64,000 bases of DNA from Lentisphaerae bacterium GWF2_50_93 (GCA_001804815.1 MHBI01000011.1:1670-65669), one strand, 5' to 3'. Positions 4,205 to 56,377 are shown, numbered from the stretch's first letter. Program-made: numbers and translations. Notes: generated from the sequence alone by a model not told the origin.

Positions 4205-4410
4205 CAGTCCTCCTTCGGAGGATCTGAGCGTTAAGTAGGTACGTGCTTTCCTGTCCTGTACCGAGCTTAGTTGAAGTAGCTGTCGAAGGAAGCATGTAGC
4301 ATCTTAATTTAGGAATGGGACAGGCTGAAGCCCGTCCCATGAATTCAAGAATGGTACACCCTAAAGGACGTACCTACTTCAAGAACGCGCAAATCCGCCT
4401 CGGCGGACTG
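4205..4410. other. Long imperfect hairpin, candidate structured RNA or palindromic element in a convergent intergenic region
   Basis: CAGTCC (4205) pairs with GGACTG (4405). A perfect 12-bp pair AAGTAGGTACGT (4233-4244) / ACGTACCTACTT (4368-4379) lies inside. Inner hairpins are CCTCC-TTC-GGAGG and GGGACAGGC-TGAA-GCCCGTCCC. No convincing ORF. Confidence 0.3.
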
Positions 4411-9019: not shown

Positions 9020-9036
9020 TTTAATTAAAGGACTTT

Positions 9037-9095
9037 TTAACCACTAATTTACACTAACAGGACACTAACGAATATTTGCTGTGAATCTGTTTTTT
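9037..9095. repeat. Half copy (left arm) of the CACTAA/TTAGTG palindromic element
   Basis: TTAACCACTAATTTACACTAACAGGACACTAACGAATATTTGCTGTGAATC lies directly upstream of the wbuB-like start. No right arm is present. Confidence 0.6.
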
Positions 9096-9192
9096 GCATA
9101 TTTCTTAACCAGATTCCCTTGTCCGAGACGGACAACGCTACATTCTGTACCGACGACTGTCCCACCGTCTTACTGTCTGACCGTCCCACTGC

Positions 9193-37278: not shown

Positions 37279-37614
37279 TTATAATTTCAGGCTTTCAAGC
37301 CATTCCGTAAGTAGGGGGATATGGTTTTGCACAGCATCCCACACAATATTATCATCAACGCTATCATATCCATGTATGATTCGGTTGCGCATGCCGATGA
37401 TGCTTCCAATTGAGGGGATTTGACTTCGGAACGATGTGTCTATGCGATCTATCCGACTAAACGCTTCGCCAAGAATTTCAAATTGTCGTTCTACAGCTGA
37501 GCGCAAAAGCAAGCTGGCAGAGTATTCACTCAACGACTTCTCAGCAGTGAACAATGTGATTGCCTTGCATGCCGTCAGGGCATCAAGCAGATACTTTGCC
37601 AGTTCGATCTTCAT
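37279..37614 (-). CDS. hepT: HepT-like (DUF86) RNase toxin
   Basis: 111 aa with the R-x4-H-x-Y motif in GMRNRIIHGYDSVD. It is paired with an upstream nucleotidyltransferase. Confidence 0.8.
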   Translation of the reverse strand: MKIELAKYLLDALTACKAITLFTAEKSLSEYSASLLLRSAVERQFEILGEAFSRIDRIDTSFRSQIPSIGSIIGMRNRIIHGYDSVDDNIVWDAVQNHIPLLTEWLESLKL

Positions 37615-37924
37615 AAATTAAAGCTCTAGACTCATCTACTTTCTTTTGAAAATAAGAATTGCGGATTGATTTTGGGGTTAGCAGATCCACTTCTCTTCCC
37701 AGCAGTCTTTCAAGCTGTGTGGCTAGAGCAAGATAACGATCCAAAAGGCCCAAGCTTGAAGCCGAATTGTCAAATTCGACTATAAAATCTATGTCGCTAT
37801 GAGAGGAGTCAAATCTGCCATCGGAGGCAGAGCCAAAAACCTCCAAACGGTGAATTTGAAGATTTTTACAGATGGTCGCAATTTTAGGTTTGTTGGCAAC
37901 AAGCAAATCTATCATATACAACAT
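37583..37924 (-). CDS. mntA: MntA-like nucleotidyltransferase antitoxin
   Basis: LEVFGSASDGRFDSSHSDIDFIVEF (G-S-x10-D-x-D minimal NTase motif). The start is uncertain (37924, 37915 or 37966). It overlaps hepT by 32 nt. Confidence 0.75.
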   Translation of the reverse strand: MLYMIDLLVANKPKIATICKNLQIHRLEVFGSASDGRFDSSHSDIDFIVEFDNSASSLGLLDRYLALATQLERLLGREVDLLTPKSIRNSYFQKKVDESRALIYEDRTGKVSA

Positions 37925-38060
37925 ACCCGAATTTGTTGAATCATACACATTGGGATACTCTATCATGTATCAACCGTTTCTGCAAGAGGTGCCTGCTAGT
38001 GGCGAAGTATTTTTTCCTTTCTTCGGATTACGGCTTGCCAAACCACTGTCCATCCGATAC

Positions 38061-38091
38061 AGGATCTTCGCCGAGACGGCGAACTCTACAT
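38061..38091 (-). promoter_or_regulatory. Conserved hairpin module (sense: ATGTAGAGTTCGCCGTCTCGGCGAAGATCC), minus-strand copy
   Basis: It is the reverse complement of the modules at 49638-49670 and 55674-55702, between the wza-like stop and the mntA start. Stem TTCGCCG/CGGCGAA, loop TCTC. Confidence 0.6.
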
Positions 38092-38121
38092 TTTTACCGA
38101 CCGACGTCTGTCCTCCGCTGC

Positions 38122-40566
38122 CTACTGTATATCAATCGTGCTGTCCATCGGGACTTCGGGATTGAACCAGAGAAGTCTCTTGCCGTTCAGGATGTTTCCG
38201 GCGTACGTTTTAATCAGGATTTCCCTAGGAGTAAAGCCGTGTGTGTATCCGCCGGCCATATTTACGTAATACATATAATCTTCGCCTTCCTTATACACAT
38301 ACCGGCCTGGCTTGACAACAGAGCCTGAAATGAAAACCCAGGGCTGTATTTCCATAACCTCAATTTCATCGCCGGGCTTCACAACTATATTCTGCGCGCT
38401 GTCATGATTCTCTATTGCTTCATTGATATACACATCTGAAAGCATCCCGTCCCTTTTTAGAACCGCCTTGCCGATCATTACATTATTTTTAAAACCTCCC
38501 GCCCTCTCGACAAGCGATGATAATTTCTCATTATCCATATAGTTATATTTGCCTGGATAGTTGACCTTTCCTGACAATTCGACATCAGCCTCGTTTAAAT
38601 TAAAGTACGGATTCTTTGGGATGATTACCAGATCCTTCTCCTTCAGCAGGAAGAGCCTGTTCTCTTTGGAATTATAGTTCAAAAGTATAGCTTCCTTTTT
38701 CTCAATATCGGCTTCTCTTTTTAATCGCCCGATATCCACTCTTTCGGGATTTGCGGATTCAGTAAATCCTCCAGAGGCTTTTATGAGGTCGGCAATATTC
38801 ATGTTTTCTGTAAACTCATATTTCCCAGGCTTTTTAACTTCACCTCTGATTTCAATATGTTTTTTAGGTATGATCTCGTCTACCGAGTAAATCCTTACGC
38901 TGTCTCCGCTTGACAGCTTTATGCTTGTCTTGTTGCCCAGGACCTCGTAAATATTAAAAGGAATGATCTCAAATTCCCCCAGGCTTTTCTTCCTGAAAAG
39001 GTCAGCTCTCTCCATGTATATCTTCTTGTCCCTGTCCGGATCGTCAAAACCTCCGGCCATGAAAAGTAGATCCTGGAGGGTCATATCCTTGTTGAGCATA
39101 TATTTTCCGGGATTGCTGACAATGCCTGATATGCTGACGAATTTATCCTGCCCCTTCATTTCAAACTGGGAATAGATGATTATCTTGTCCATAGGGTTAA
39201 GAACAAATGGCTTGTCATTAGTATCAGCAAAGTTCAACCTGACGATTTCCTTCGTCAGATCCGCATTAGTACGGAGGATGATTATATTGTCCAGATAAGC
39301 ATCTTTATAGAGTCCGCCGGCCTCTGCAACAAGGTCCTTGAGGGTCGAGCCTTTTTTGTATTCATAGGTCCCAGGCTTTTTTACCCCGCTTCCACTGACA
39401 GTCAGGATGTCTCTGATTTTTTTAATTGGCATCACTGTGAAGCATATAGAATCCCTCGGATATAATTCTACATCTTTGCCGTCAACTAAGTCAATGTCAA
39501 GGAATTGCTCGCCTTTTACAGGATCATATCTTTCTATTTTTACTTTATCCTTGATTGCCTCAACGGAATAGCCTCCGGCGATTTCAAGAAGCTTGTTCAG
39601 GTTTTCATCTTTTTTAAGCTCGTATATGCCGGGTTTGGCGACGGCCCCTTGAAGCGCAACAGTTTTTCCTCTGATCGGTACGTATATGATATCGCCGTCA
39701 TTGAGATACTTGTCCTCTGACTTTAAGTTTCCTTTCAGAAGAAAGCTGTATAGGTCGAAAGTGTTGACTTTTCCGTCTTTCATCTTTCTGATTTCAATGT
39801 TCCTCAAAGACCCTATGGGATTTACACCGCCCCCTTGTTTCAGCGCGTTCATTACTGAGGCCGATGCAGCGTCAAGGTTAATCTCGCCAGGCTTAGCAAC
39901 TTCGCCTGTTACAAACAACTTAACTCCGATGTTCTTCCCGAGCGTTATATCGACTATGGAACTGCCGGAACCGGGATTTTCTGGATTGATGAACGCGGCA
40001 TATGTCTGGCTGAGGGCTTTAAGGATCTTTGCTTTGGCGGTGATGAGTTCCATCCCATGGACGTAGACGCGCCCGACTTTCAGTATGTCAATAAATCCAT
40101 CCTGTTGTATAGGAAGCTTATAATGGAGATTGACGTCACCCCAGATGTCAATTATGATTTCATCACCGGATTTCAAGATATAGTCGCCGAGGATTGCATT
40201 TGACGCACCCTGTGCAGGTCCTCCGGTTTTCAGGAACTCATAGCCAAATTCCTTTAAGGCGCCTTCAGCAGTTATCTTGTCGGTATCAGGAGAATTTGGA
40301 CCGCCTGCAACTTTCGCAGTAGCGCTGCCTGCTGGAACTGCCGCCCCAGTTGTAGAAGCGGAGGCAGTTCCTGGAGCAGTCGCTGTGCCGACCGAAGAAG
40401 AAGCCCCGGGGTTGCTTGATACAGCGGGCGGTGCAACGACAGCTGGAGCGGTCGCAGTTGCCCCGGCAGTTGAAGTTTCCGCTGCAATTACTGCAGCCGC
40501 GATAGCTGCGGTTGTTAAAACCGCAAACACAAGAAATACGATTGTCTTCTTACTGAATATTTTCAT
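38122..40566 (-). CDS. wza: Outer-membrane polysaccharide export protein (Wza/OPX family) with multiple SLBB domains
   Basis: 814 aa. A signal peptide is followed by an Ala/Thr/Ser/Pro-rich linker and a Poly_export-like segment (SGDEIIIDIWGD...IQQDGFIDILKVGRVYVHGMEL). Repeated SLBB-like modules follow (V.I.G.V.KPG.Y). Confidence 0.8.
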   Translation of the reverse strand: MKIFSKKTIVFLVFAVLTTAAIAAAVIAAETSTAGATATAPAVVAPPAVSSNPGASSSVGTATAPGTASASTTGAAVPAGSATAKVAGGPNSPDTDKITAEGALKEFGYEFLKTGGPAQGASNAILGDYILKSGDEIIIDIWGDVNLHYKLPIQQDGFIDILKVGRVYVHGMELITAKAKILKALSQTYAAFINPENPGSGSSIVDITLGKNIGVKLFVTGEVAKPGEINLDAASASVMNALKQGGGVNPIGSLRNIEIRKMKDGKVNTFDLYSFLLKGNLKSEDKYLNDGDIIYVPIRGKTVALQGAVAKPGIYELKKDENLNKLLEIAGGYSVEAIKDKVKIERYDPVKGEQFLDIDLVDGKDVELYPRDSICFTVMPIKKIRDILTVSGSGVKKPGTYEYKKGSTLKDLVAEAGGLYKDAYLDNIIILRTNADLTKEIVRLNFADTNDKPFVLNPMDKIIIYSQFEMKGQDKFVSISGIVSNPGKYMLNKDMTLQDLLFMAGGFDDPDRDKKIYMERADLFRKKSLGEFEIIPFNIYEVLGNKTSIKLSSGDSVRIYSVDEIIPKKHIEIRGEVKKPGKYEFTENMNIADLIKASGGFTESANPERVDIGRLKREADIEKKEAILLNYNSKENRLFLLKEKDLVIIPKNPYFNLNEADVELSGKVNYPGKYNYMDNEKLSSLVERAGGFKNNVMIGKAVLKRDGMLSDVYINEAIENHDSAQNIVVKPGDEIEVMEIQPWVFISGSVVKPGRYVYKEGEDYMYYVNMAGGYTHGFTPREILIKTYAGNILNGKRLLWFNPEVPMDSTIDIQ

Positions 40567-45735: not shown

Positions 45736-46074
45736 TGACAGAAGTTCGAAAGTTCGGGAATGCGTAGGTGCGTCAGTCTTTATTTCTAAAGGTAGGGACG
45801 CCTTAAAGTTTATCCCGATCCTGTAAGGCATCGGGAAGGCGTCCACGGCGCTCTCGGCGAGAGCGCCGTACCTGGATTCATCCCATGCAATAGAAACTGA
45901 TGTGTTACGTGCCCCCGTTAATCTAATTCCAGAATATCTTGCGAATAACCAAAATGACTGTATTGTATATGCCGGAGTCTTGGGGATACGCATTGTGTTT
46001 TCGTGCAATCCCTGATCTGGGCTCGTCTGGAAAAATCATGGGTCAGGACAACTAATCTATGGGGGAACATCATT

Positions 46075-49560: not shown

Positions 49561-49606
49561 GGGAGGCAGGAAGTGCGGAAGTGCGGAAGTGCGGAAGTTG
49601 CGAATT
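49561..49606 (+). repeat. GGAAGTGC octamer word tract
   Basis: GGGAGGCAGGAAGTGCGGAAGTGCGGAAGTGCGGAAGTTGCGAATTACG begins immediately after the gspC-like stop. Confidence 0.85.
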
Positions 49607-49637
49607 ACGTTGGAGTCCAAGCTTCAGATTGCGTATT

Positions 49638-49670
49638 GGATGTAGAGTTCGCCGTCTCGGCGAAGATCTT
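49638..49670 (+). promoter_or_regulatory. Conserved hairpin module GGATGTAGAGTTCGCCGTCTCGGCGAAGATCTT
   Basis: One of three copies in the window, all in sense orientation relative to the flanking genes. This one lies 72 nt upstream of gspD. Confidence 0.6.
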
Positions 49671-49741
49671 GGGACGGTGTGCAGTAGAGAAGACAGAATT
49701 TGAATTTAAAAAATACAAAAAAATATGGATGTATGTGGATT

Positions 49742-52042
49742 ATGAAAAAAATCATTGTATCAATTGCAGCGTCCTCGTGCGCGCTGTTCTTCCTCTTTTC
49801 GTGTACCATGTTCAAGGAGGACAAGCCTGCGGACCAGGGCATAGTCAAGGACTCCACGCTCAACAAGAAGACAGGTCTTGTTAAGCAGGAATTTACCGGC
49901 AACATGAAGGACGATGCAATCGAAACCCTTCCACCTCCAAAGACAGATGACAGGATACAGGAGATCATAAAGATCCAGGAGAGGAAGGCCGCGGCGGACG
50001 CCAAGCTGAACGAACCGTTCTACGTGAAATGGCTTGCAGGCACGGAAAACGAGGAGATTCCCGTGATGTTCAACAGCGACGTAGTTCCGATTGGAGCTTT
50101 CCTGCAGCAGTTTTCAAATTCCCTTAAATTCAATTATCTTGTGGATCCCCAGGTCACTGGAAACGTTACGATCTTCATGAGCAGCACGAAAATTACAAAG
50201 AAGGAGGCATGGGTGCTCCTGGAACAGGTGCTCTGGCTCTGCGGAGCCTACTGTTCCCCGGAAGGAAACGTCCTGCACATACTTCCATTCTCCAAAATGC
50301 CCCAGGAAAGAAAGCTCCTAATCGGACATGATCCCCAGGTGAATGTCGAAGTCATACTGCTCTCGATCAAAAATGCCGCATCAAAGGACATGCTTGAGAA
50401 GATCAAGCCCTTCATAACTCCAGGAGCGACCGTCACCGACATCTCCCACCAGAATGCGATCCTGCTTGTGGAGACGCCTGCGAACGTCGAGAAGATACAG
50501 GCGCTGGTAAGGCTTCTCGACCAGAAGAACAAGAACAACTGGCCGCAGACCGTGATCCAATGCATAAACGTCTCTTCGGCGAGAGTAAAGAATGAGCTTG
50601 CCGCGATACTGCCGGTGCTTGGTTTCCCTGTTTCAACCGACAACATCCAGGCCGAACCCGGCTCGATAACCCTCATCAGTCTTGACAGGCTGCAGGTGGT
50701 CGTAGCCACCGCCGCGAATGAAGAGGCCCTCGGGGAGCTTAAGAAATGGGCGGCGATCCTCGACAGGACCGATGTCGGCGAGCAGGAACAGGTTTTCATC
50801 TACAAGGTCGTGAATTCCAGGGCCGATCAGCTTCTGAGCGCGATATCGGTCATCTTCCCGGTTGAAAGCACGGTCCTTTCGGCGCCATCCGGAGGAGGAG
50901 GAGACGCGTCTACTTCTACTTCGACGTCCACATCAGGCACCGGATCAAAATCGTCGAGCGCCAGTTCGCCGTCAGGCAGCGGGGCGTCGAAATTCTCAGC
51001 GGCTTCCGGATCTGGTAATAAGGCCGGCAGTGCAACTGCGACCTCAAGCAGCAGCGCCAAGGGGCAGGATGACAAAGGGCCTGCAAGCGTCTTTGATGTG
51101 CCTGTCAAGGTATTTGCGGATGGAGTCCACAACAGGATGGTCATAAGGACGACTCCGAGGACCTACGCCATGCTGAGGGCCGTGCTTGAAAGGCTTGATA
51201 CGGTTGCCGCACAGGTGCTGCTGCAGGTGCTGGTGTCGGAGGTGACGCTCACGGATGACACGGCGTACGGCCTCGAATTCTCCCAGAAAAAGTCGGATGG
51301 CAATACCGAGAGCCTTTTCGGGACAAGCTGGGCGTCTCTGGCCAGGGGGACGACGGGGAAGCCCTCGGACGGATTCAAGTACCTGCTTACAGACAAGGGC
51401 AATCCTGATGAGAAATTCGCCTATATCAAAGCCATTGCAGGGAAAGGAAGGGTGAAGGTTCTTTCAAGCCCGCAGATCCTGGTGGCCAGCCATTCCGAGG
51501 CCAAGATATCGGTGGGAGACCGGGTTCCCATCATCACCAATCAGATCACCGATACATCCTCGGTTACGACAACCAGCACGGTGCTCAACAGCGCAGTCGA
51601 GTATGTCGACACCGGAATAATCCTCATAATCACTCCGCATGTCACCGAAGGGGGCCTTATAACGATGGAGCTTGATCAGACAGTTTCGGATGCAATTAAA
51701 ACCACTTCCTCCACGATTGACTCCCCGACCATTTCGGAACGTATCCTGCAGACCACCCTTTCAATCCGCGATGGGGGAACTGTCATAGTCGGTGGAATCA
51801 TCAAGGAAAGGGACGAGGAAAACAACCAGTCAGTTCCCTTTGTCTCCGAAATAAACCTGCTGAGCAAGCTTTTTGGCAATACCACCAGTACTTCCGTAAG
51901 GACGGAAATGGTTGTCCTCATTACTGGCAGGATCATCGACGAGCACAGCAATCTCGATGAGATCACCGCAAGATATAAGCAGGCGTTGAAGGCTATAAGC
52001 GACATGGAAAAACAGAATATCAGGGAAGAAAATGTCAAGTGA
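49742..52042 (+). CDS. gspD: Secretin (GspD/PilQ family) with lipoprotein signal and a Ser/Thr/Gly-rich insert
   Basis: MKKIIVSIAASSCALFFLFSC lipobox. N-domains are followed by VLSSPQILVASHSEAKISVGDRVPIITNQ and RTEMVVLITGRII secretin signatures. The low-complexity insert is SGGGGDASTSTSTSTSGTGSKSSSASSPSGSGAS. Confidence 0.85.
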   Translation: MKKIIVSIAASSCALFFLFSCTMFKEDKPADQGIVKDSTLNKKTGLVKQEFTGNMKDDAIETLPPPKTDDRIQEIIKIQERKAAADAKLNEPFYVKWLAGTENEEIPVMFNSDVVPIGAFLQQFSNSLKFNYLVDPQVTGNVTIFMSSTKITKKEAWVLLEQVLWLCGAYCSPEGNVLHILPFSKMPQERKLLIGHDPQVNVEVILLSIKNAASKDMLEKIKPFITPGATVTDISHQNAILLVETPANVEKIQALVRLLDQKNKNNWPQTVIQCINVSSARVKNELAAILPVLGFPVSTDNIQAEPGSITLISLDRLQVVVATAANEEALGELKKWAAILDRTDVGEQEQVFIYKVVNSRADQLLSAISVIFPVESTVLSAPSGGGGDASTSTSTSTSGTGSKSSSASSPSGSGASKFSAASGSGNKAGSATATSSSSAKGQDDKGPASVFDVPVKVFADGVHNRMVIRTTPRTYAMLRAVLERLDTVAAQVLLQVLVSEVTLTDDTAYGLEFSQKKSDGNTESLFGTSWASLARGTTGKPSDGFKYLLTDKGNPDEKFAYIKAIAGKGRVKVLSSPQILVASHSEAKISVGDRVPIITNQITDTSSVTTTSTVLNSAVEYVDTGIILIITPHVTEGGLITMELDQTVSDAIKTTSSTIDSPTISERILQTTLSIRDGGTVIVGGIIKERDEENNQSVPFVSEINLLSKLFGNTTSTSVRTEMVVLITGRIIDEHSNLDEITARYKQALKAISDMEKQNIREENVK

Positions 52043-55115: not shown

Positions 55116-55535
55116 ATGAAACGGAGATACTGCGAAGCAAGGTTTTTCACCCTGATGGAAATGGCCGTGGTTGTCGCGATAATCGCGCTTACCGCCGCAA
55201 TTGTCATGCCCGTCTATTTCAACCATGTGAAAAAGGCGAAGATAGGCACGGCAAAGACCCAGATATCCCTGCTCGAACAGGCGATAATGGATTTCAGGCT
55301 GGATACGGGGAATCTGCCGGGTTCACTGGAAGACCTCAATAAGAATCCCGGCAACGACAAATGGAACGGACCGTATCTGCAGAAGGCGGTTCCCAAGGAT
55401 CCCTGGAACAATCCCTATATTTATACCGTTCCCGGCACACACGGCGACTACGACCTTGTCAGCTATGGAAGCGATAACCAGCCGGGTGGTACGGGAGAAT
55501 CTGCGGATCTCGCAAACTGGGATGCCCAGCCATAG
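55116..55535 (+). CDS. gspG: Major pseudopilin GspG
   Basis: FTLMEMAVVVAIIALTAAIV, then TAKTQISLLEQAIMDFRLDTGNLP, DKWNGPYL, DPWNNPYIY and DLVSYGSDNQPGG. Confidence 0.9.
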   Translation: MKRRYCEARFFTLMEMAVVVAIIALTAAIVMPVYFNHVKKAKIGTAKTQISLLEQAIMDFRLDTGNLPGSLEDLNKNPGNDKWNGPYLQKAVPKDPWNNPYIYTVPGTHGDYDLVSYGSDNQPGGTGESADLANWDAQP

Positions 55536-55536
55536 G

Positions 55537-55626
55537 CGAACAATTCAACTTCGAACATTGAACATCCAACGTCGTGGAACAATCGAATATCGAACAGCCG
55601 AACAATCGAATTACGAATATCGAAGT
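55537..55626 (+). repeat. TCGAACA-type word tract
   Basis: GAACAATTCAACTTCGAACATTGAACATCCAACGTCGTGGAACAATCGAATATCGAACAGCCGAACAATCGAATTACGAATATCGAAG. Confidence 0.8.
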
Positions 55627-55673: not shown

Positions 55674-55702
55674 GATGTAGAGTTCGCCGTCCCGGCGAAG
55701 AG
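55674..55702 (+). promoter_or_regulatory. Conserved hairpin module GATGTAGAGTTCGCCGTCCCGGCGAAGAG
   Basis: Third copy, followed by the GGAAGTGCGGAA and TTGGAGTTCAAACTTTAG modules. These also occur at 49570-49630, but in a different order. Confidence 0.6.
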
Positions 55703-55873
55703 AATTGCGGAGTTCTGGGATGGAACTAAGGAAGTGCGGAAATCTTGTTGGAGTTCAAACTTTAGTTTGTCTTAGTATTCAATTCAAGGCGGGTTTTTCC
55801 ATGAACTCAAATCCGAAACAATTAAGGCGGAAGATTCAAATATCTGAAATTTCAAAACTTAGAATTTCGAATT

Positions 55874-56377
55874 TTGCATATGCTTAATACATGGAAATCT
55901 AAAAAAAAGACCGTCCGTTCCGGATTCACGCTGATTGAACTCATAGCCGTACTGGCGATAGCTCTCCTCATCACAGGCGTCGTCGTGGTTAATGTTGGAA
56001 GGATGCCGGCTTTCATATCCCTTGACAATACAGCCCACAGGATACAATACCTGTTCTCAAAGGCTGCAATGATGGCGGCCGCGCAGGGCAAAGTCGTAAA
56101 TGTGTCATATTCAGGTAACTCTTTCACAATCGACCAGGCGGATAACTCCGAAGCCGGAATAGGCCTCTCGGCCGGCGGAACAGCGGTTTCAGAAAGAATT
56201 CCGGAATCAGTGGAACTGGTGTTCGACGACGAGGAGCCGAAATATATCTTCTTCCCCGACGGAACAGGTTCGGGTACAGCATTCAAAATGACTCTCAAAG
56301 GGCATTCCTGCAGGATACGGATATCGCCGCTTACAGGCGCCGCCGTGCTGGAATATCCCGGGGAGGGGGAGCAATGA
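55874..56377 (+). CDS. gspH: Minor pseudopilin, GspH-like
   Basis: Prepilin leader ...VRSG/FTLIELIAVLAIALLITGVVV (canonical Gly at -1, Glu at +5). 167 aa. Confidence 0.65.
   Translation: MHMLNTWKSKKKTVRSGFTLIELIAVLAIALLITGVVVVNVGRMPAFISLDNTAHRIQYLFSKAAMMAAAQGKVVNVSYSGNSFTIDQADNSEAGIGLSAGGTAVSERIPESVELVFDDEEPKYIFFPDGTGSGTAFKMTLKGHSCRIRISPLTGAAVLEYPGEGEQ

What the first reader, a model, noticed from the sequence alone, without database searches (positions are those of the whole stretch)
49638..49670. Conserved 30-nt hairpin module whose orientation tracks the direction of transcription
GATGTAGAGTTCGCCGTCYCGGCGAAGA occurs at 49638-49670 (+, upstream of gspD) and 55674-55702 (+, upstream of gspH-like). 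A reverse-complement copy lies at 38061-38091, between the wza-like and mntA genes, which are on the minus strand. In all three cases the same strand is the sense strand, which argues for an RNA-level or directional function. The stem is TTCGCCG/CGGCGAA with loop TCTC or TCCC. No U-run follows, so it is not a classical intrinsic terminator. The companion modules GGAAGTGCGGAA and TTGGAGTYCAARCTTYAG accompany it in two spacers but in permuted order. Related CTCGGCG-centred hairpins occur at 4394-4410 and 45847-45867.
Basis: seen in the sequence. Interest (0 to 1): 0.6.

Follow-up and report, generated by a model that had tools for sequence, protein, structure and literature searches.

The report
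Victivallis REP repeat, transposase-linked

Summary
The three copies sit where reported (0 expected by chance), and a fourth copy with a different stem (9117-9144, minus strand) was missed.

The module is not a local regulatory signal. It is a dispersed family of about 83 copies in this 6.4-Mb genome, about 93% of them outside ORF calls. Each copy has an invariant GTAG head, a 7-bp stem with three covarying pairs, and a 3-nt loop. Sixty percent of copies form inverted doublets with GTAG outward, nearly always pairing an 'A' stem (TTCGCCG) with a 'B' stem (TTGTCCG or TTGCCCG). One locus is a tandem array of four doublets.

The family occurs only in the genus Victivallis (Lentisphaerota): 8 of 9 congeneric genomes and 0 of 21 others. 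In two congeners, a REP-associated tyrosine transposase (RAYT) above NCBIfam's cut-off is directly flanked by these repeats. No ortholog is in this assembly. Three window copies are missing from the orthologous spacers of the nearest relatives.

It is therefore a REP/REPIN/BIME family: a new member of a known kind.

The orientation claim holds for solitary copies only (13:1 here, 7:1 in relatives). Doublets are symmetric. The cause is unresolved.

The parts
49639..49666 (+). F1 REP, A-type stem (TTCGCCG/CGGCGAA, loop TCT). Solitary copy between a 290-aa ORF and gspD. The repeated unit is about 49637-49669.
   Evidence: Absent from the orthologous spacers of G004 and G005.
55674..55701 (+). F1 REP, A-type stem, loop TCC. 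Solitary copy between gspG and an N-methyl pseudopilin gene.
   Evidence: G005 keeps the neighbouring TTGGAG module but lacks the REP-containing stretch of about 85 nt; G004 has a short empty spacer.
38065..38092 (-). F1 REP, A-type stem. Solitary copy downstream of the wza-like gene and upstream of mntA/hepT, all on the minus strand.
9117..9144 (-). F1 REP, B-type stem (TTGTCCG/CGGACAA). Solitary copy between a heparinase II/III-like gene and a glycosyltransferase gene, both on the minus strand.
   Evidence: Absent from the orthologous spacer in G005:C183.
49610..49627 (+). The 'companion' TTGGAGTCCAAGCTTCAG: a member of a separate dispersed hairpin-repeat family, directly abutting the REP.
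   Evidence: (147 genome hits, covarying stem CAARC/GYTTG).
55748..55765 (+). Second copy of the TTGGAG-family repeat (TTGGAGTTCAAACTTTAG).
   Evidence: It is conserved at the orthologous site in G005, so it is older than the REP insertion.
49569..49598 (+). GGAAGTGC tandem repeat (about 3.5 units). Part of the lineage-specific spacer filler.
   Evidence: Absent in G004 and G005.
55577..55617 (+). 41-nt dispersed repeat (GGAACAATCGAATATCGAAC...), another independent family in the same spacer.
   Evidence: at least 10 further copies at 88-98% identity.
45791..45872 (.). Inverted doublet of a different GTAG-hairpin family (F3, GGTAGGGACGCC... with GGCGCTCTCGGCGAGAGCGCC).
4353..4378 (-).

Best explanation
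The module is a REP (repetitive extragenic palindrome) of the GTAG-tagged class. It is a non-autonomous repeat whose single-stranded DNA form (GTAG guide tetranucleotide, 2 nt, 7-bp hairpin) is the substrate of a cognate REP-associated tyrosine (HUH/Y1) transposase, a RAYT (TnpA_REP).

The propagating unit is most likely the inverted A/B doublet (REPIN or BIME unit) with GTAG ends outward. The two arms carry different, internally compensated stems, so each arm folds on itself rather than the whole doublet forming one long perfect palindrome.

The family is confined to the genus Victivallis. In relatives the RAYT gene is bracketed by these repeats (a 'REPtron').

In the window's genome no cognate RAYT is assembled, and 40% of copies are solitary or have a decayed partner. 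All four window copies are of this kind. They lie in spacers that are mosaics of several unrelated short repeats, and these copies are lineage-specific insertions.

Shown: family anatomy, copy number, covariation, doublet structure, taxonomic range, RAYT linkage in relatives, presence/absence at orthologous sites, and the orientation bias of singlets.

Inferred: that the RAYT mobilises them, that the doublet is the mobile unit, and that singlets descend from doublets.

My preferred reading of the sense-strand bias (about 40% of my belief) is filtering after insertion. Copies in promoter spacers, and antisense halves inside transcribed spacers, are lost, while sense-strand hairpins are tolerated or mildly useful in the mRNA. 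Strand-specific insertion is the main alternative.
For: 1. Copy number. There are 83 copies against 4 in a shuffled genome. GTAG is invariant in all catalogued copies (whose scan was anchored on GTAG; the unanchored fuzzy search shows the same head in nearly all hits). About 93% of copies lie outside ORF calls.

2. Stem covariation. Three of the 7 stem pairs covary (CG/GC; GC/UA/CG; CG/UA). 77 cells are changed on both sides, against 31.9 +/- 3.3 in shuffles and 2 or fewer in slid controls.

3. Doublets. There are 25 head-to-head pairs with GTAG outward. 23 of the 25 pair an A stem with a B stem, and spacers are mostly 9-11 nt. One tandem array of 4 doublets lies at C23:6056-6408. Doublets fold with z = -5.5 to -6.1.

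4. RAYT linkage in relatives.
- G003:C60:1139-1624 scores 95.6 bits against NF047646 (cut-off 80). F1 REPs flank it at 1024-1136 and 1660-1723.
- Its 65%-identical ortholog G001:C144 is flanked by arrays of a variant of the same REP.
- The only solved-structure match of this protein is E. coli TnpA_REP (4ER8, E = 7e-9). The HxH motif (DHIH aligned to EHMH) and the Y-x3-N motif (YVFMN aligned to YIYIN) both line up.

5. Range. The family is genus-restricted with very uneven copy numbers (3 to 69): 8 of 9 congeners and 0 of 21 genomes from other genera. All named records are Victivallis, Victivallales or Lentisphaerae.

6. Mobility. Three window copies are absent at orthologous sites of the closest relatives. 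The repeated unit is only about 30-32 nt, with unique flanks.

7. Host genome. It carries 17 Y1_Tnp matches, 4 above the RAYT cut-off, and at least 5 other GTAG-hairpin families.

8. Literature. The definition matches: GTAG plus palindrome, dimers, REPtrons, and location between unidirectional and convergent ORFs (PMC8266576, PMC3733652, PMC3116915).
Against: - No RAYT in the window's own assembly is flanked by this family. The best homolog of the cognate RAYT there is only 36% identical. Linkage therefore rests on relatives, and the assembly is 91% complete.
- The indels at orthologous sites are larger than the REP (75-140 nt) and are not clean excisions. They show lineage-specific gain or loss rather than a demonstrated transposition event.
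- A CT cleavage dinucleotide is found within 7 nt on either side in only about half the copies.
- Surviving singlets are not more diverged than doublet members (0.79 against 0.52 mismatches, p = 0.27). This does not fit simple 'dead remnant' decay, although the catalogue's mismatch threshold truncates this test.
- No biochemical or transcript evidence is available.
Confidence: 0.85

Rival explanations
1. The solitary, sense-oriented copies are functional RNA elements. They would be transcribed inside operon spacers, where the hairpin acts as an mRNA stabiliser, processing site or decay barrier, and selection keeps them in the sense orientation. This is compatible with a REP origin (co-option). 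It is the reader's reading.
For: - Singlets are 13:1 sense in this genome and 7:1 in relatives.
- In decayed doublets the intact half is sense 4:1.
- Singlets are as well conserved as doublet members.
- There are 25 convergent copies against 1 divergent in this genome. In G003, which keeps the RAYT, doublets also sit in divergent spacers: 11 copies divergent against 8 convergent. That contrast suggests filtering after insertion.
- Where gene strand and local GC skew disagree, the REP follows the gene 5:1 for F1 and 4:0 for F2.
- REPs are known mRNA stabilisers in E. coli (established knowledge; PMC3733652 argues that most REPs are transcribed).
Against: - The stem is a perfect palindrome, so the same hairpin forms in either orientation. 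Only the GUAG head and the loop differ.
- There is no fixed distance to the upstream stop (33-1005 nt) or to the downstream start (24-1243 nt).
- There is no Rfam match.
- The copies are absent from orthologous spacers of close relatives, so they are dispensable for these operons.
Confidence: 0.25
2. The orientation bias is mechanistic. The RAYT acts on only one strand (REP, not its complement) and inserts into single-stranded DNA. Orientation would then be fixed relative to whichever strand is exposed: the lagging-strand template at forks, or the non-template strand of transcribed DNA.
For: - TnpA_REP recognises single-stranded REP but not the inverted REP (PMC8266576).
- IS200/IS605 relatives insert into the lagging-strand template (PMC6006769).
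- A second family (F2) shows the same singlet bias, 20:3.
- For leading-strand genes, both the replication model and the transcription model predict the observed sense orientation (inference).
Against: - Local GC skew does not predict orientation. In skew-discordant cases the REP follows the gene, not the skew.
- Gene-strand and skew concordance is only about 62%. That is too weak to yield 90% sense orientation through replication alone.
- Nine of the 20 sense-oriented F2 singlets are explained by the head's TAG serving as a stop codon.
- A third family (F3) shows no bias, 17:16.
- Skew on draft contigs is a weak proxy for replication direction.
Confidence: 0.3
3. It is a terminal inverted repeat or MITE of a conventional (non-RAYT) transposon, or a protein operator site, and the RAYT neighbourhood in relatives is coincidental.
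For: Doublets resemble MITEs. REP clusters are known insertion targets for IS elements (PMC3116915 discussion).
Against: - Two orthologous RAYT genes in different species are bracketed on both sides by their own species' variant of exactly this repeat.
- The GTAG head and hairpin geometry match the RAYT substrate definition.
- No other transposase is linked.
- The stem sequence varies freely while its structure is kept, which is the opposite of a sequence-specific double-stranded operator.
Confidence: 0.04
4. It is an intrinsic (Rho-independent) terminator or attenuator.
For: It is a GC-rich 7-bp hairpin located downstream of genes, with a convergent-spacer preference.
Against: - No T-run follows the stem in any window copy. 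The consensus 3' flank is AAGA-NTCTTAA.
- Copies sit inside the T2SS gene cluster between gspG and the pseudopilin gene, where termination would split the cluster.
Confidence: 0.03

Closest known systems
Group 3 REPtrons (Stenotrophomonas maltophilia REP_Sm, Marinomonas MWYL1 REP_Mb) with their TnpA_REP (PMC8266576)
   Same: Short perfect palindrome with a 3-4 nt loop, preceded by GTAG directly or at 2 nt. The RAYT gene is flanked by REP and inverted-REP pairs.
   Different: - Different phylum (Lentisphaerota rather than Proteobacteria).
- Unrelated stem sequence.
- The RAYT is only distantly related.
- No biochemistry has been done.
E. coli REP/BIME (Y, Z1, Z2 palindromic units) and TnpA_REP (PDB 4ER8)
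   Same: GTAG head, alternating inverted arrangement of two distinct REP subtypes (Y/Z there, A/B here), tandem BIME-like arrays, and extragenic location. The cognate transposase's only solved-structure match is 4ER8, with the HUH and Tyr motifs aligned.
   Different: - E. coli REPs have bulged, longer stems, whereas here the stems are perfect 7-bp helices.
- About 83 copies rather than about 600.
- The cognate RAYT was not found in this assembly.
REPIN-RAYT systems of Pseudomonas fluorescens SBW25 (PMC3116915, PMC3337134)
   Same: Inverted doublets are the dominant form, singlets form a minority, the family is lineage-specific, and the RAYT is flanked by its REPs.
   Different: - The doublets here are much more compact (57-68 nt; spacers of 1-16 nt).
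- Singlets are not detectably more decayed than doublet members.
- Singlets show a strong sense-strand bias, which is not reported in the papers I read.
GTAG-tagged REP super-family survey (Di Nocera et al. 2013, PMC3733652)
   Same: GTAG terminus, 'HH' dimers with GTAG outside, a preference for unidirectional and convergent spacers, and TAG of the head supplying stop codons (seen here for family F2).
   Different: Neither Lentisphaerae nor Victivallis appears in that text. This stem family is not among the ones I could check.
IS200/IS605 insertion sequences (IS608, ISDra2)
   Same: Y1 HUH transposase, sub-terminal single-stranded DNA hairpins, and a guide tetranucleotide 5' of the hairpin.
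   Different: REPs are gene-less, and the RAYT is a single-copy, domesticated-looking gene rather than part of a mobile IS.

Membership tests
REP / REPIN / BIME with RAYT (TnpA_REP) | Conserved GTAG (or GTGG) tetranucleotide 5' of the palindrome | tested here: met
   GTAG heads all 85 catalogued copies, 2 nt from the stem (that scan was anchored on GTAG). The unanchored fuzzy search shows the same head in nearly all of its 70 hits.
REP / REPIN / BIME with RAYT (TnpA_REP) | Short (20-50 nt) palindrome forming a hairpin, with structure kept through compensatory change | tested here: met
   7-bp stem with a 3-nt loop. Three pairs covary: 77 double-sided changes against 31.9 in shuffles. DNA fold z = -3.3 to -3.7. 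Caveat: the catalogue allowed at most 1 stem mismatch.
REP / REPIN / BIME with RAYT (TnpA_REP) | Many dispersed copies, overwhelmingly extragenic | tested here: met
   83 copies against 4 in a shuffled genome. 77 of 83 lie outside ORF calls made with my own crude gene caller.
REP / REPIN / BIME with RAYT (TnpA_REP) | Inverted doublets (REPINs) and tandem higher-order arrays (BIMEs) | tested here: met
   25 GTAG-outward pairs, 23 of them A/B heterotypic. One array of 4 doublets with a period of about 95 nt.
REP / REPIN / BIME with RAYT (TnpA_REP) | A cognate RAYT gene flanked by the same REPs (REPtron) | tested here: inconclusive
   Met in relatives: G003:C60 and G001:C144. Not met in the window's own assembly, where the best homolog is 36% identical and no F1 copy lies within 20 kb of any Y1 gene. 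The assembly is 91% complete.
REP / REPIN / BIME with RAYT (TnpA_REP) | The transposase has the HUH motif and a single catalytic Tyr (Y1) and belongs to the RAYT clade | tested here: met
   NF047646 score of 95.6 bits against a cut-off of 80. Aligned to 4ER8 with DHIH/EHMH and YVFMN/YIYIN in register.
REP / REPIN / BIME with RAYT (TnpA_REP) | Lineage-specific family with variable copy number and presence/absence at orthologous sites | tested here: met
   Found in 8 of 9 genomes of the genus and 0 of 21 outside it, with 3-69 copies. Three window sites are empty in G004 or G005, though the indels are not REP-precise.
REP / REPIN / BIME with RAYT (TnpA_REP) | Strand-specific binding and cleavage of single-stranded REP by the RAYT at a flanking CT | not testable with these tools
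   This needs purified protein and oligonucleotides. In sequence, a CT lies within 7 nt in 44 of 83 copies on each side, which is uninformative.
Intrinsic terminator | GC-rich hairpin immediately followed by a U/T run | tested here: not met
   The 3' flanks are AAGATCTTGGG, AAGAGAATTGC and AAGATCCTGTA. The consensus has no T-run.
Any curated RNA family (Rfam 15) | Match at the gathering threshold | tested here: not met
   No match in the whole 64-kb window.

The most novel reading that the evidence does not exclude
Solitary REPs in Victivallis are not inert remnants. They would be retained, or inserted, specifically on the sense strand of transcribed spacers, for one of two reasons: the GUAG-headed hairpin has been co-opted as an mRNA element, or the RAYT targets the non-template strand exposed by transcription. 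The second reason would make transcription, rather than replication, the source of single-stranded DNA for a Y1 transposase.
Probability: 0.2. Interest if true: 0.55.

Novelty: new member of a known kind. Interest (0 to 1): 0.3.

Why it matters
The finding removes a candidate 'regulatory RNA motif' upstream of type II secretion genes and replaces it with a well-understood class of selfish or domesticated repeat.

It also documents REP/RAYT systems in Lentisphaerota. I found no paper linking Victivallis to REPs. This genome carries at least six repeat families and 17 Y1-transposase homologs, so annotators of these MAGs should expect spacers built as mosaics of short repeats, and contig breaks at those repeats.

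Two points may interest REP specialists:
- Solitary copies are strongly biased to the sense strand (20:2 across genomes).
- The RAYT-bearing relative has tight doublets everywhere, while this RAYT-less assembly has many singlets and almost none in divergent spacers. If that contrast holds, the genus is a natural comparison set for studying how REP populations are filtered after insertion.

Tried and rejected
- Rfam scan of the window: no match.
- Search for a RAYT flanked by this family in the window's own genome. I examined 17 Y1_Tnp loci. Several are flanked by other GTAG-hairpin families (C108, C87), and none by F1. A tblastn search with the relatives' cognate RAYT found at best 34-38% identity.
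- Replication-strand explanation of the orientation, tested with local GC skew (+/-20 and +/-50 kb). Skew does not predict orientation. Skew on draft contigs is a weak proxy, so this explanation is down-weighted rather than excluded.
- A stop-codon-overlap explanation. It holds for family F2 (9 of 20) but not for F1, whose nearest upstream stop is at least 33 nt away.
- A larger composite mobile unit around the window copies. I rejected this because only the REP of about 30-32 nt is repeated and the flanks are unique or belong to other families. The one 80-nt composite match is C58:365-444.
- A CT cleavage dinucleotide as a conserved flank: inconclusive.
- Singlets being more decayed than doublet members: not seen. 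The test is truncated by my catalogue threshold.
- One Pfam call failed on a wrong frame and was repeated correctly.

Full report
OBSERVATION

The 28-mer GATGTAGAGTTCGCCGTCYCGGCGAAGA matches the window three times: 49639-49666 (+), 55674-55701 (+) and 38065-38092 (-, one mismatch). None of 100 dinucleotide-preserving shuffles gave a match.

- The stem is TTCGCCG/CGGCGAA.
- The loop is 3 nt (TCT or TCC).
- No T-run follows.
- The GGAAGTGC and TTGGAGTYCAARCTTYAG modules lie in the two plus-strand spacers.

Pfam confirms the gene names:

| Window coordinates | Strand | Product |
|---|---|---|
| 49700-52042 | + | GspD secretin |
| 55116-55535 | + | GspG |
| 55874-56377 | + | N-methyl pseudopilin |
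| 38122-40566 | - | Wza-like exporter |
| 37583-37966 | - | MntA-type nucleotidyltransferase |
| 37279-37614 | - | HepT |

WHAT THE GENOME SHOWS

The window is C11:1670-65669 of a draft genome of 6.42 Mb in 120 contigs, with 50% GC.

Copy number and conservation:
- A fuzzy search found about 70 copies.
- A structure-aware catalogue found 85, against 4 in a shuffled genome. Dropping two doubtful hits leaves 83.
- The head ATGTAG-N-GTT and the tail AA are essentially invariant.

Stem variation. Three of the seven stem pairs vary, and they vary together. This gives an 'A' type (TTCGCCG or TTCGCTG) and a 'B' type (TTGTCCG, TTGCCCG or TTGCCTG). On 63 distinct sequences, 98.9% of cells pair. 77 cells carry changes on both sides, against 31.9 +/- 3.3 in shuffles and at most 2 in slid controls. 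The high pairing percentage is partly built in by the catalogue criterion; the covariation is not. Single units fold as DNA hairpins with z = -3.3 to -3.7, and doublets with z = -5.5 to -6.1.

One consequence is that the window holds a fourth copy, of B type, at 9117-9144 on the minus strand.

ARCHITECTURE

Using a crude ORF and codon-usage gene caller of my own (4,828 calls, 87% coding), 77 of the 83 copies lie outside ORF calls.

- Fifty copies form 25 inverted pairs with the GTAG ends outward.
- 23 of the 25 pairs combine one A with one B unit.
- Spacers are mostly 9-11 nt, with consensus GRGAATTAAGAWTC.
- One locus (C23:6056-6408) is a tandem array of four such doublets.

This is the geometry of REPINs and of E. 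coli BIMEs, where Y and Z units alternate. Di Nocera et al. call such dimers 'HH' (PMC3733652). Because the two arms differ at the covarying positions, the predicted fold of a doublet is an outer ATGTAG/CTACAT stem carrying two local hairpins, rather than one long perfect palindrome. I infer that this heterotypy is what keeps the doublet from being an unstable long palindrome.

LINK TO A TRANSPOSASE

The genome has 17 matches to Pfam Y1_Tnp. Four of the proteins exceed the curated cut-off of NCBIfam's RAYT model NF047646.

The genome also has at least five other GTAG-plus-hairpin families (381 perfect-stem GTAG hairpins against 34 in a shuffle). Some of these flank RAYT genes in the classic way: C108:102912-103505 and C87:92412-93650. 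None of the 17 genes is flanked by the family in question.

The link appears in relatives.
- **G003:C60** (= CAZRKP010000060, 'uncultured Victivallis sp.'). A RAYT at 1139-1624 (95.6 bits) has F1 units at 1024-1051, 1072-1099 and 1109-1136 on one side, and at 1660-1687 and 1696-1723 on the other.
- **G001:C144.** The 65%-identical ortholog is bracketed by arrays of a slightly different version of the same repeat (GGTGTAGnGTTGCCCGTGCCGGGCAAG with ...GTTCGCCGTGTCGGCGAAGG).

The only match of this protein in the PDB is E. coli TnpA_REP (4ER8). The HxH motif and the Y-x3-N motif both align.

In the window's genome the best homolog of this protein is only 36% identical. The cognate gene is therefore either lost or lies in the unassembled 9%. 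REP-bracketed genes are hard to assemble, and F1 copies sit at several contig ends (C58, C59, C86).

DISTRIBUTION AND MOBILITY

An IUPAC pattern covering both stem types occurs in 8 of 9 genomes of the same GTDB genus, with 3 to 69 matches each. It occurs in none of 21 genomes from other genera of the family and order, and the reversed-pattern control is zero everywhere. An exact-pattern scan of 185,579 species' genomes returned only Victivallis, Victivallales or Lentisphaerae records, plus one 3.7-kb contig binned as 'Babeliales' from the same study as two of the Victivallales MAGs.

The closest relatives, G005 and G004, are 78-88% identical in the flanking genes. Their orthologous spacers lack the REP at the three sites that could be compared.

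| Site | G004 | G005 |
|---|---|---|
| Upstream of gspD | The stop of the upstream gene runs almost directly into the conserved gspD leader | A short unrelated filler |
| Upstream of the pseudopilin gene | A 60-nt empty spacer | Keeps the 41-nt repeat and the TTGGAG module but lacks about 85 nt containing the REP |
| 9117 | Not found | Lacks about 130 nt |

These indels are larger than the REP, so they show lineage-specific turnover rather than a caught transposition event. Within the genome, however, the repeated unit around each window copy is just the REP of about 30-32 nt.

THE COMPANION MODULES

These are not parts of the element.
- **TTGGAGTYCAARCTTYAG(YTTG)** has 147 hits. It has its own covarying 5-bp stem (CAAGC/GCTTG, CAAAC/GTTTG, CAGCC/GGCTG), its own inverted doublets 38 nt apart, and tandem arrays.
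- **A 41-nt repeat** at 55577-55617 has at least 10 further copies.
- **GGAAGTGCGGAA** occurs 8 times.

The 'permuted order' is what independent insertions into the same spacers would give.

- The hairpin at 45847-45867 is the second arm of a doublet of family F3 (doublet span 45791-45872).
- The CCGCCTCGGCGG hairpin at 4394-4410 lies next to a minus-strand copy (4353-4378) of AGTAGGTACnnCCTTYAGGnnGTACC.

THE ORIENTATION CLAIM

Orientation of F1 copies lying between co-directional genes in this genome:

| Class | Same strand as genes | Opposite | Two-sided binomial p |
|---|---|---|---|
| True singlets | 13 | 1 | 0.0018 |
| Decayed doublets (intact half) | 4 | 1 | 0.375 |
| Members of intact doublets | 15 | 12 | 0.70 |

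The near-even split for intact doublets is what symmetry demands. Nor is there a preferred A/B order in doublets relative to transcription: 8 against 6 by my reading.

An independent sample comes from the 39 loci fetched from other Victivallis genomes. There, singlets are 7:1 and paired copies 17:14. Pooled, singlets are 20:2 (two-sided binomial p about 0.0001, my arithmetic).

Of all copies here, 25 lie in convergent spacers and 1 in a divergent spacer. The background is 450 convergent and 572 divergent spacers.

Other families:
- F2 shows the same singlet bias, 20:3. In nine of its 20 sense-oriented cases the TAG of the GTAG head is the upstream gene's stop codon. That is a known behaviour of GTAG REPs (PMC3733652), and it does not apply to F1, whose upstream stops are at least 33 nt away.
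- F3 shows no bias, 17:16.

WHY THE BIAS?

I tested the obvious mechanistic rival, which is that Y1 transposition targets the lagging-strand template (PMC6006769).
- Local GC skew agrees with gene strand in only about 62% of genes.
- For singlets where skew and gene strand disagree, the REP follows the gene 5:1 for F1 and 4:0 for F2 with +/-20-kb windows. With +/-50-kb windows the figures are 7:0 and 3:0.

This argues for a gene-linked rather than a fork-linked cause. The numbers are small, though, and skew on draft contigs is a weak proxy.

Two further observations point to filtering after insertion.
- In G003, which retains the RAYT, almost all sampled copies are tight doublets with 1-nt spacers, and they occur in divergent spacers as often as in convergent ones. 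In G000 and G005, which have no close RAYT ortholog, singlets abound, and in G000 divergent spacers are almost empty.
- Surviving singlets are no more diverged than doublet members.

I therefore lean towards selection or tolerance at the transcript level. Strand-specific insertion is the main alternative.

COMPARISON WITH WHAT IS KNOWN

Every sequence-level defining feature of a GTAG-tagged REP family is met:
- the GTAG guide 5' of the palindrome;
- a short palindrome kept by compensatory change;
- a high extragenic copy number;
- inverted doublets and tandem arrays;
- a lineage-specific distribution;
- a Y1/HUH RAYT bracketed by the repeats.

The last feature is met only in relatives, not in this assembly, so I mark it inconclusive for this genome. 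The literature definitions come from PMC8266576, PMC3733652, PMC3116915 and PMC6006769.

In geometry the family is closest to the 'group 3' REPtrons, which have a perfect short palindrome with GTAG 0-2 nt away.

I found no paper that mentions Victivallis together with REPs. Lentisphaerae does not appear in the two surveys I searched.

Earlier notes of this scan had already recorded RAYT/REP systems, and REP heads supplying stop codons, elsewhere in this genome. My results agree with them.

VERDICT

The strand bias is real for solitary copies, but the element is a transposase-associated REP, not a dedicated regulatory RNA motif.
- Novelty: a new member of a known kind.
- Interest is modest (0.3). 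It rests mainly on the singlet orientation bias and on the contrast between RAYT-bearing and RAYT-less genomes.

Noticed in passing
G000 genome-wide (e.g. C3:13760, C4:43585); family F2, GTAGsACAGrCATTCyTGyCTGT: This is a second GTAG-hairpin family with about 126 perfect-stem copies. Its singlets are 20:3 gene-sense. In 9 of the 20 sense-oriented singlets, the TAG of the GTAG head is the stop codon of the upstream gene.
   Followed up: partly
window 49610-49637 and 55748-55775; genome-wide, e.g. C24:46914-47118 and C82:88-377: TTGGAGTYCAARCTTYAG(YTTG) is a separate dispersed repeat with 147 hits. It has a covarying 5-bp stem, inverted doublets 38 nt apart and tandem arrays. It has no GTAG head, and no transposase has been linked to it.
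   Followed up: partly
window 55577-55617: A 41-nt repeat, GGAACAATCGAATATCGAACAGCCGAACAATCGAATTACGAAT, has at least 10 further copies in the genome at 88-98% identity. G005 shares it at the orthologous site.
   Followed up: no
G000:C108:102546-103560: This is a classic REPtron for another family. A RAYT (81.7 bits against a cut-off of 80) has five AAGTAGGrCGGkTTTyAAmCCGyC units upstream and one downstream.
   Followed up: partly
G000:C87:92412-93650: A 412-aa open frame has a RAYT-like N-terminal half and a long unrelated C-terminal extension. F3 REPs abut its 5' end. It could be a fusion or a mis-joined frame.
   Followed up: no
G000: C18:4723-4810, C23:10948-11037, C88:62672-62760, C90:29109-29197, C99:313503-313590: Five doublets have as partner an A-type REP carrying an insert of about 17 nt in its loop (TCAGTCATCCGACGGGG). 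This is a third, longer REP subtype.
   Followed up: no
L031 (JBAZHB010000138.1, 3.7-kb contig labelled Candidatus Babeliales): This contig carries an exact F1 REP. It comes from the same study as two Victivallales MAGs, so it is probably mis-binned.
   Followed up: no
G003 loci L013-L051 compared with G000: In the RAYT-bearing relative, doublets mostly have 1-nt spacers and also sit in divergent spacers. In G000, spacers are mostly 9-11 nt and only 1 copy lies in a divergent spacer against 25 in convergent ones.
   Followed up: partly
window 9034-9070: A repeat of about 35 nt with CACTAA boxes (5 further copies) lies next to the fourth REP copy.
   Followed up: no
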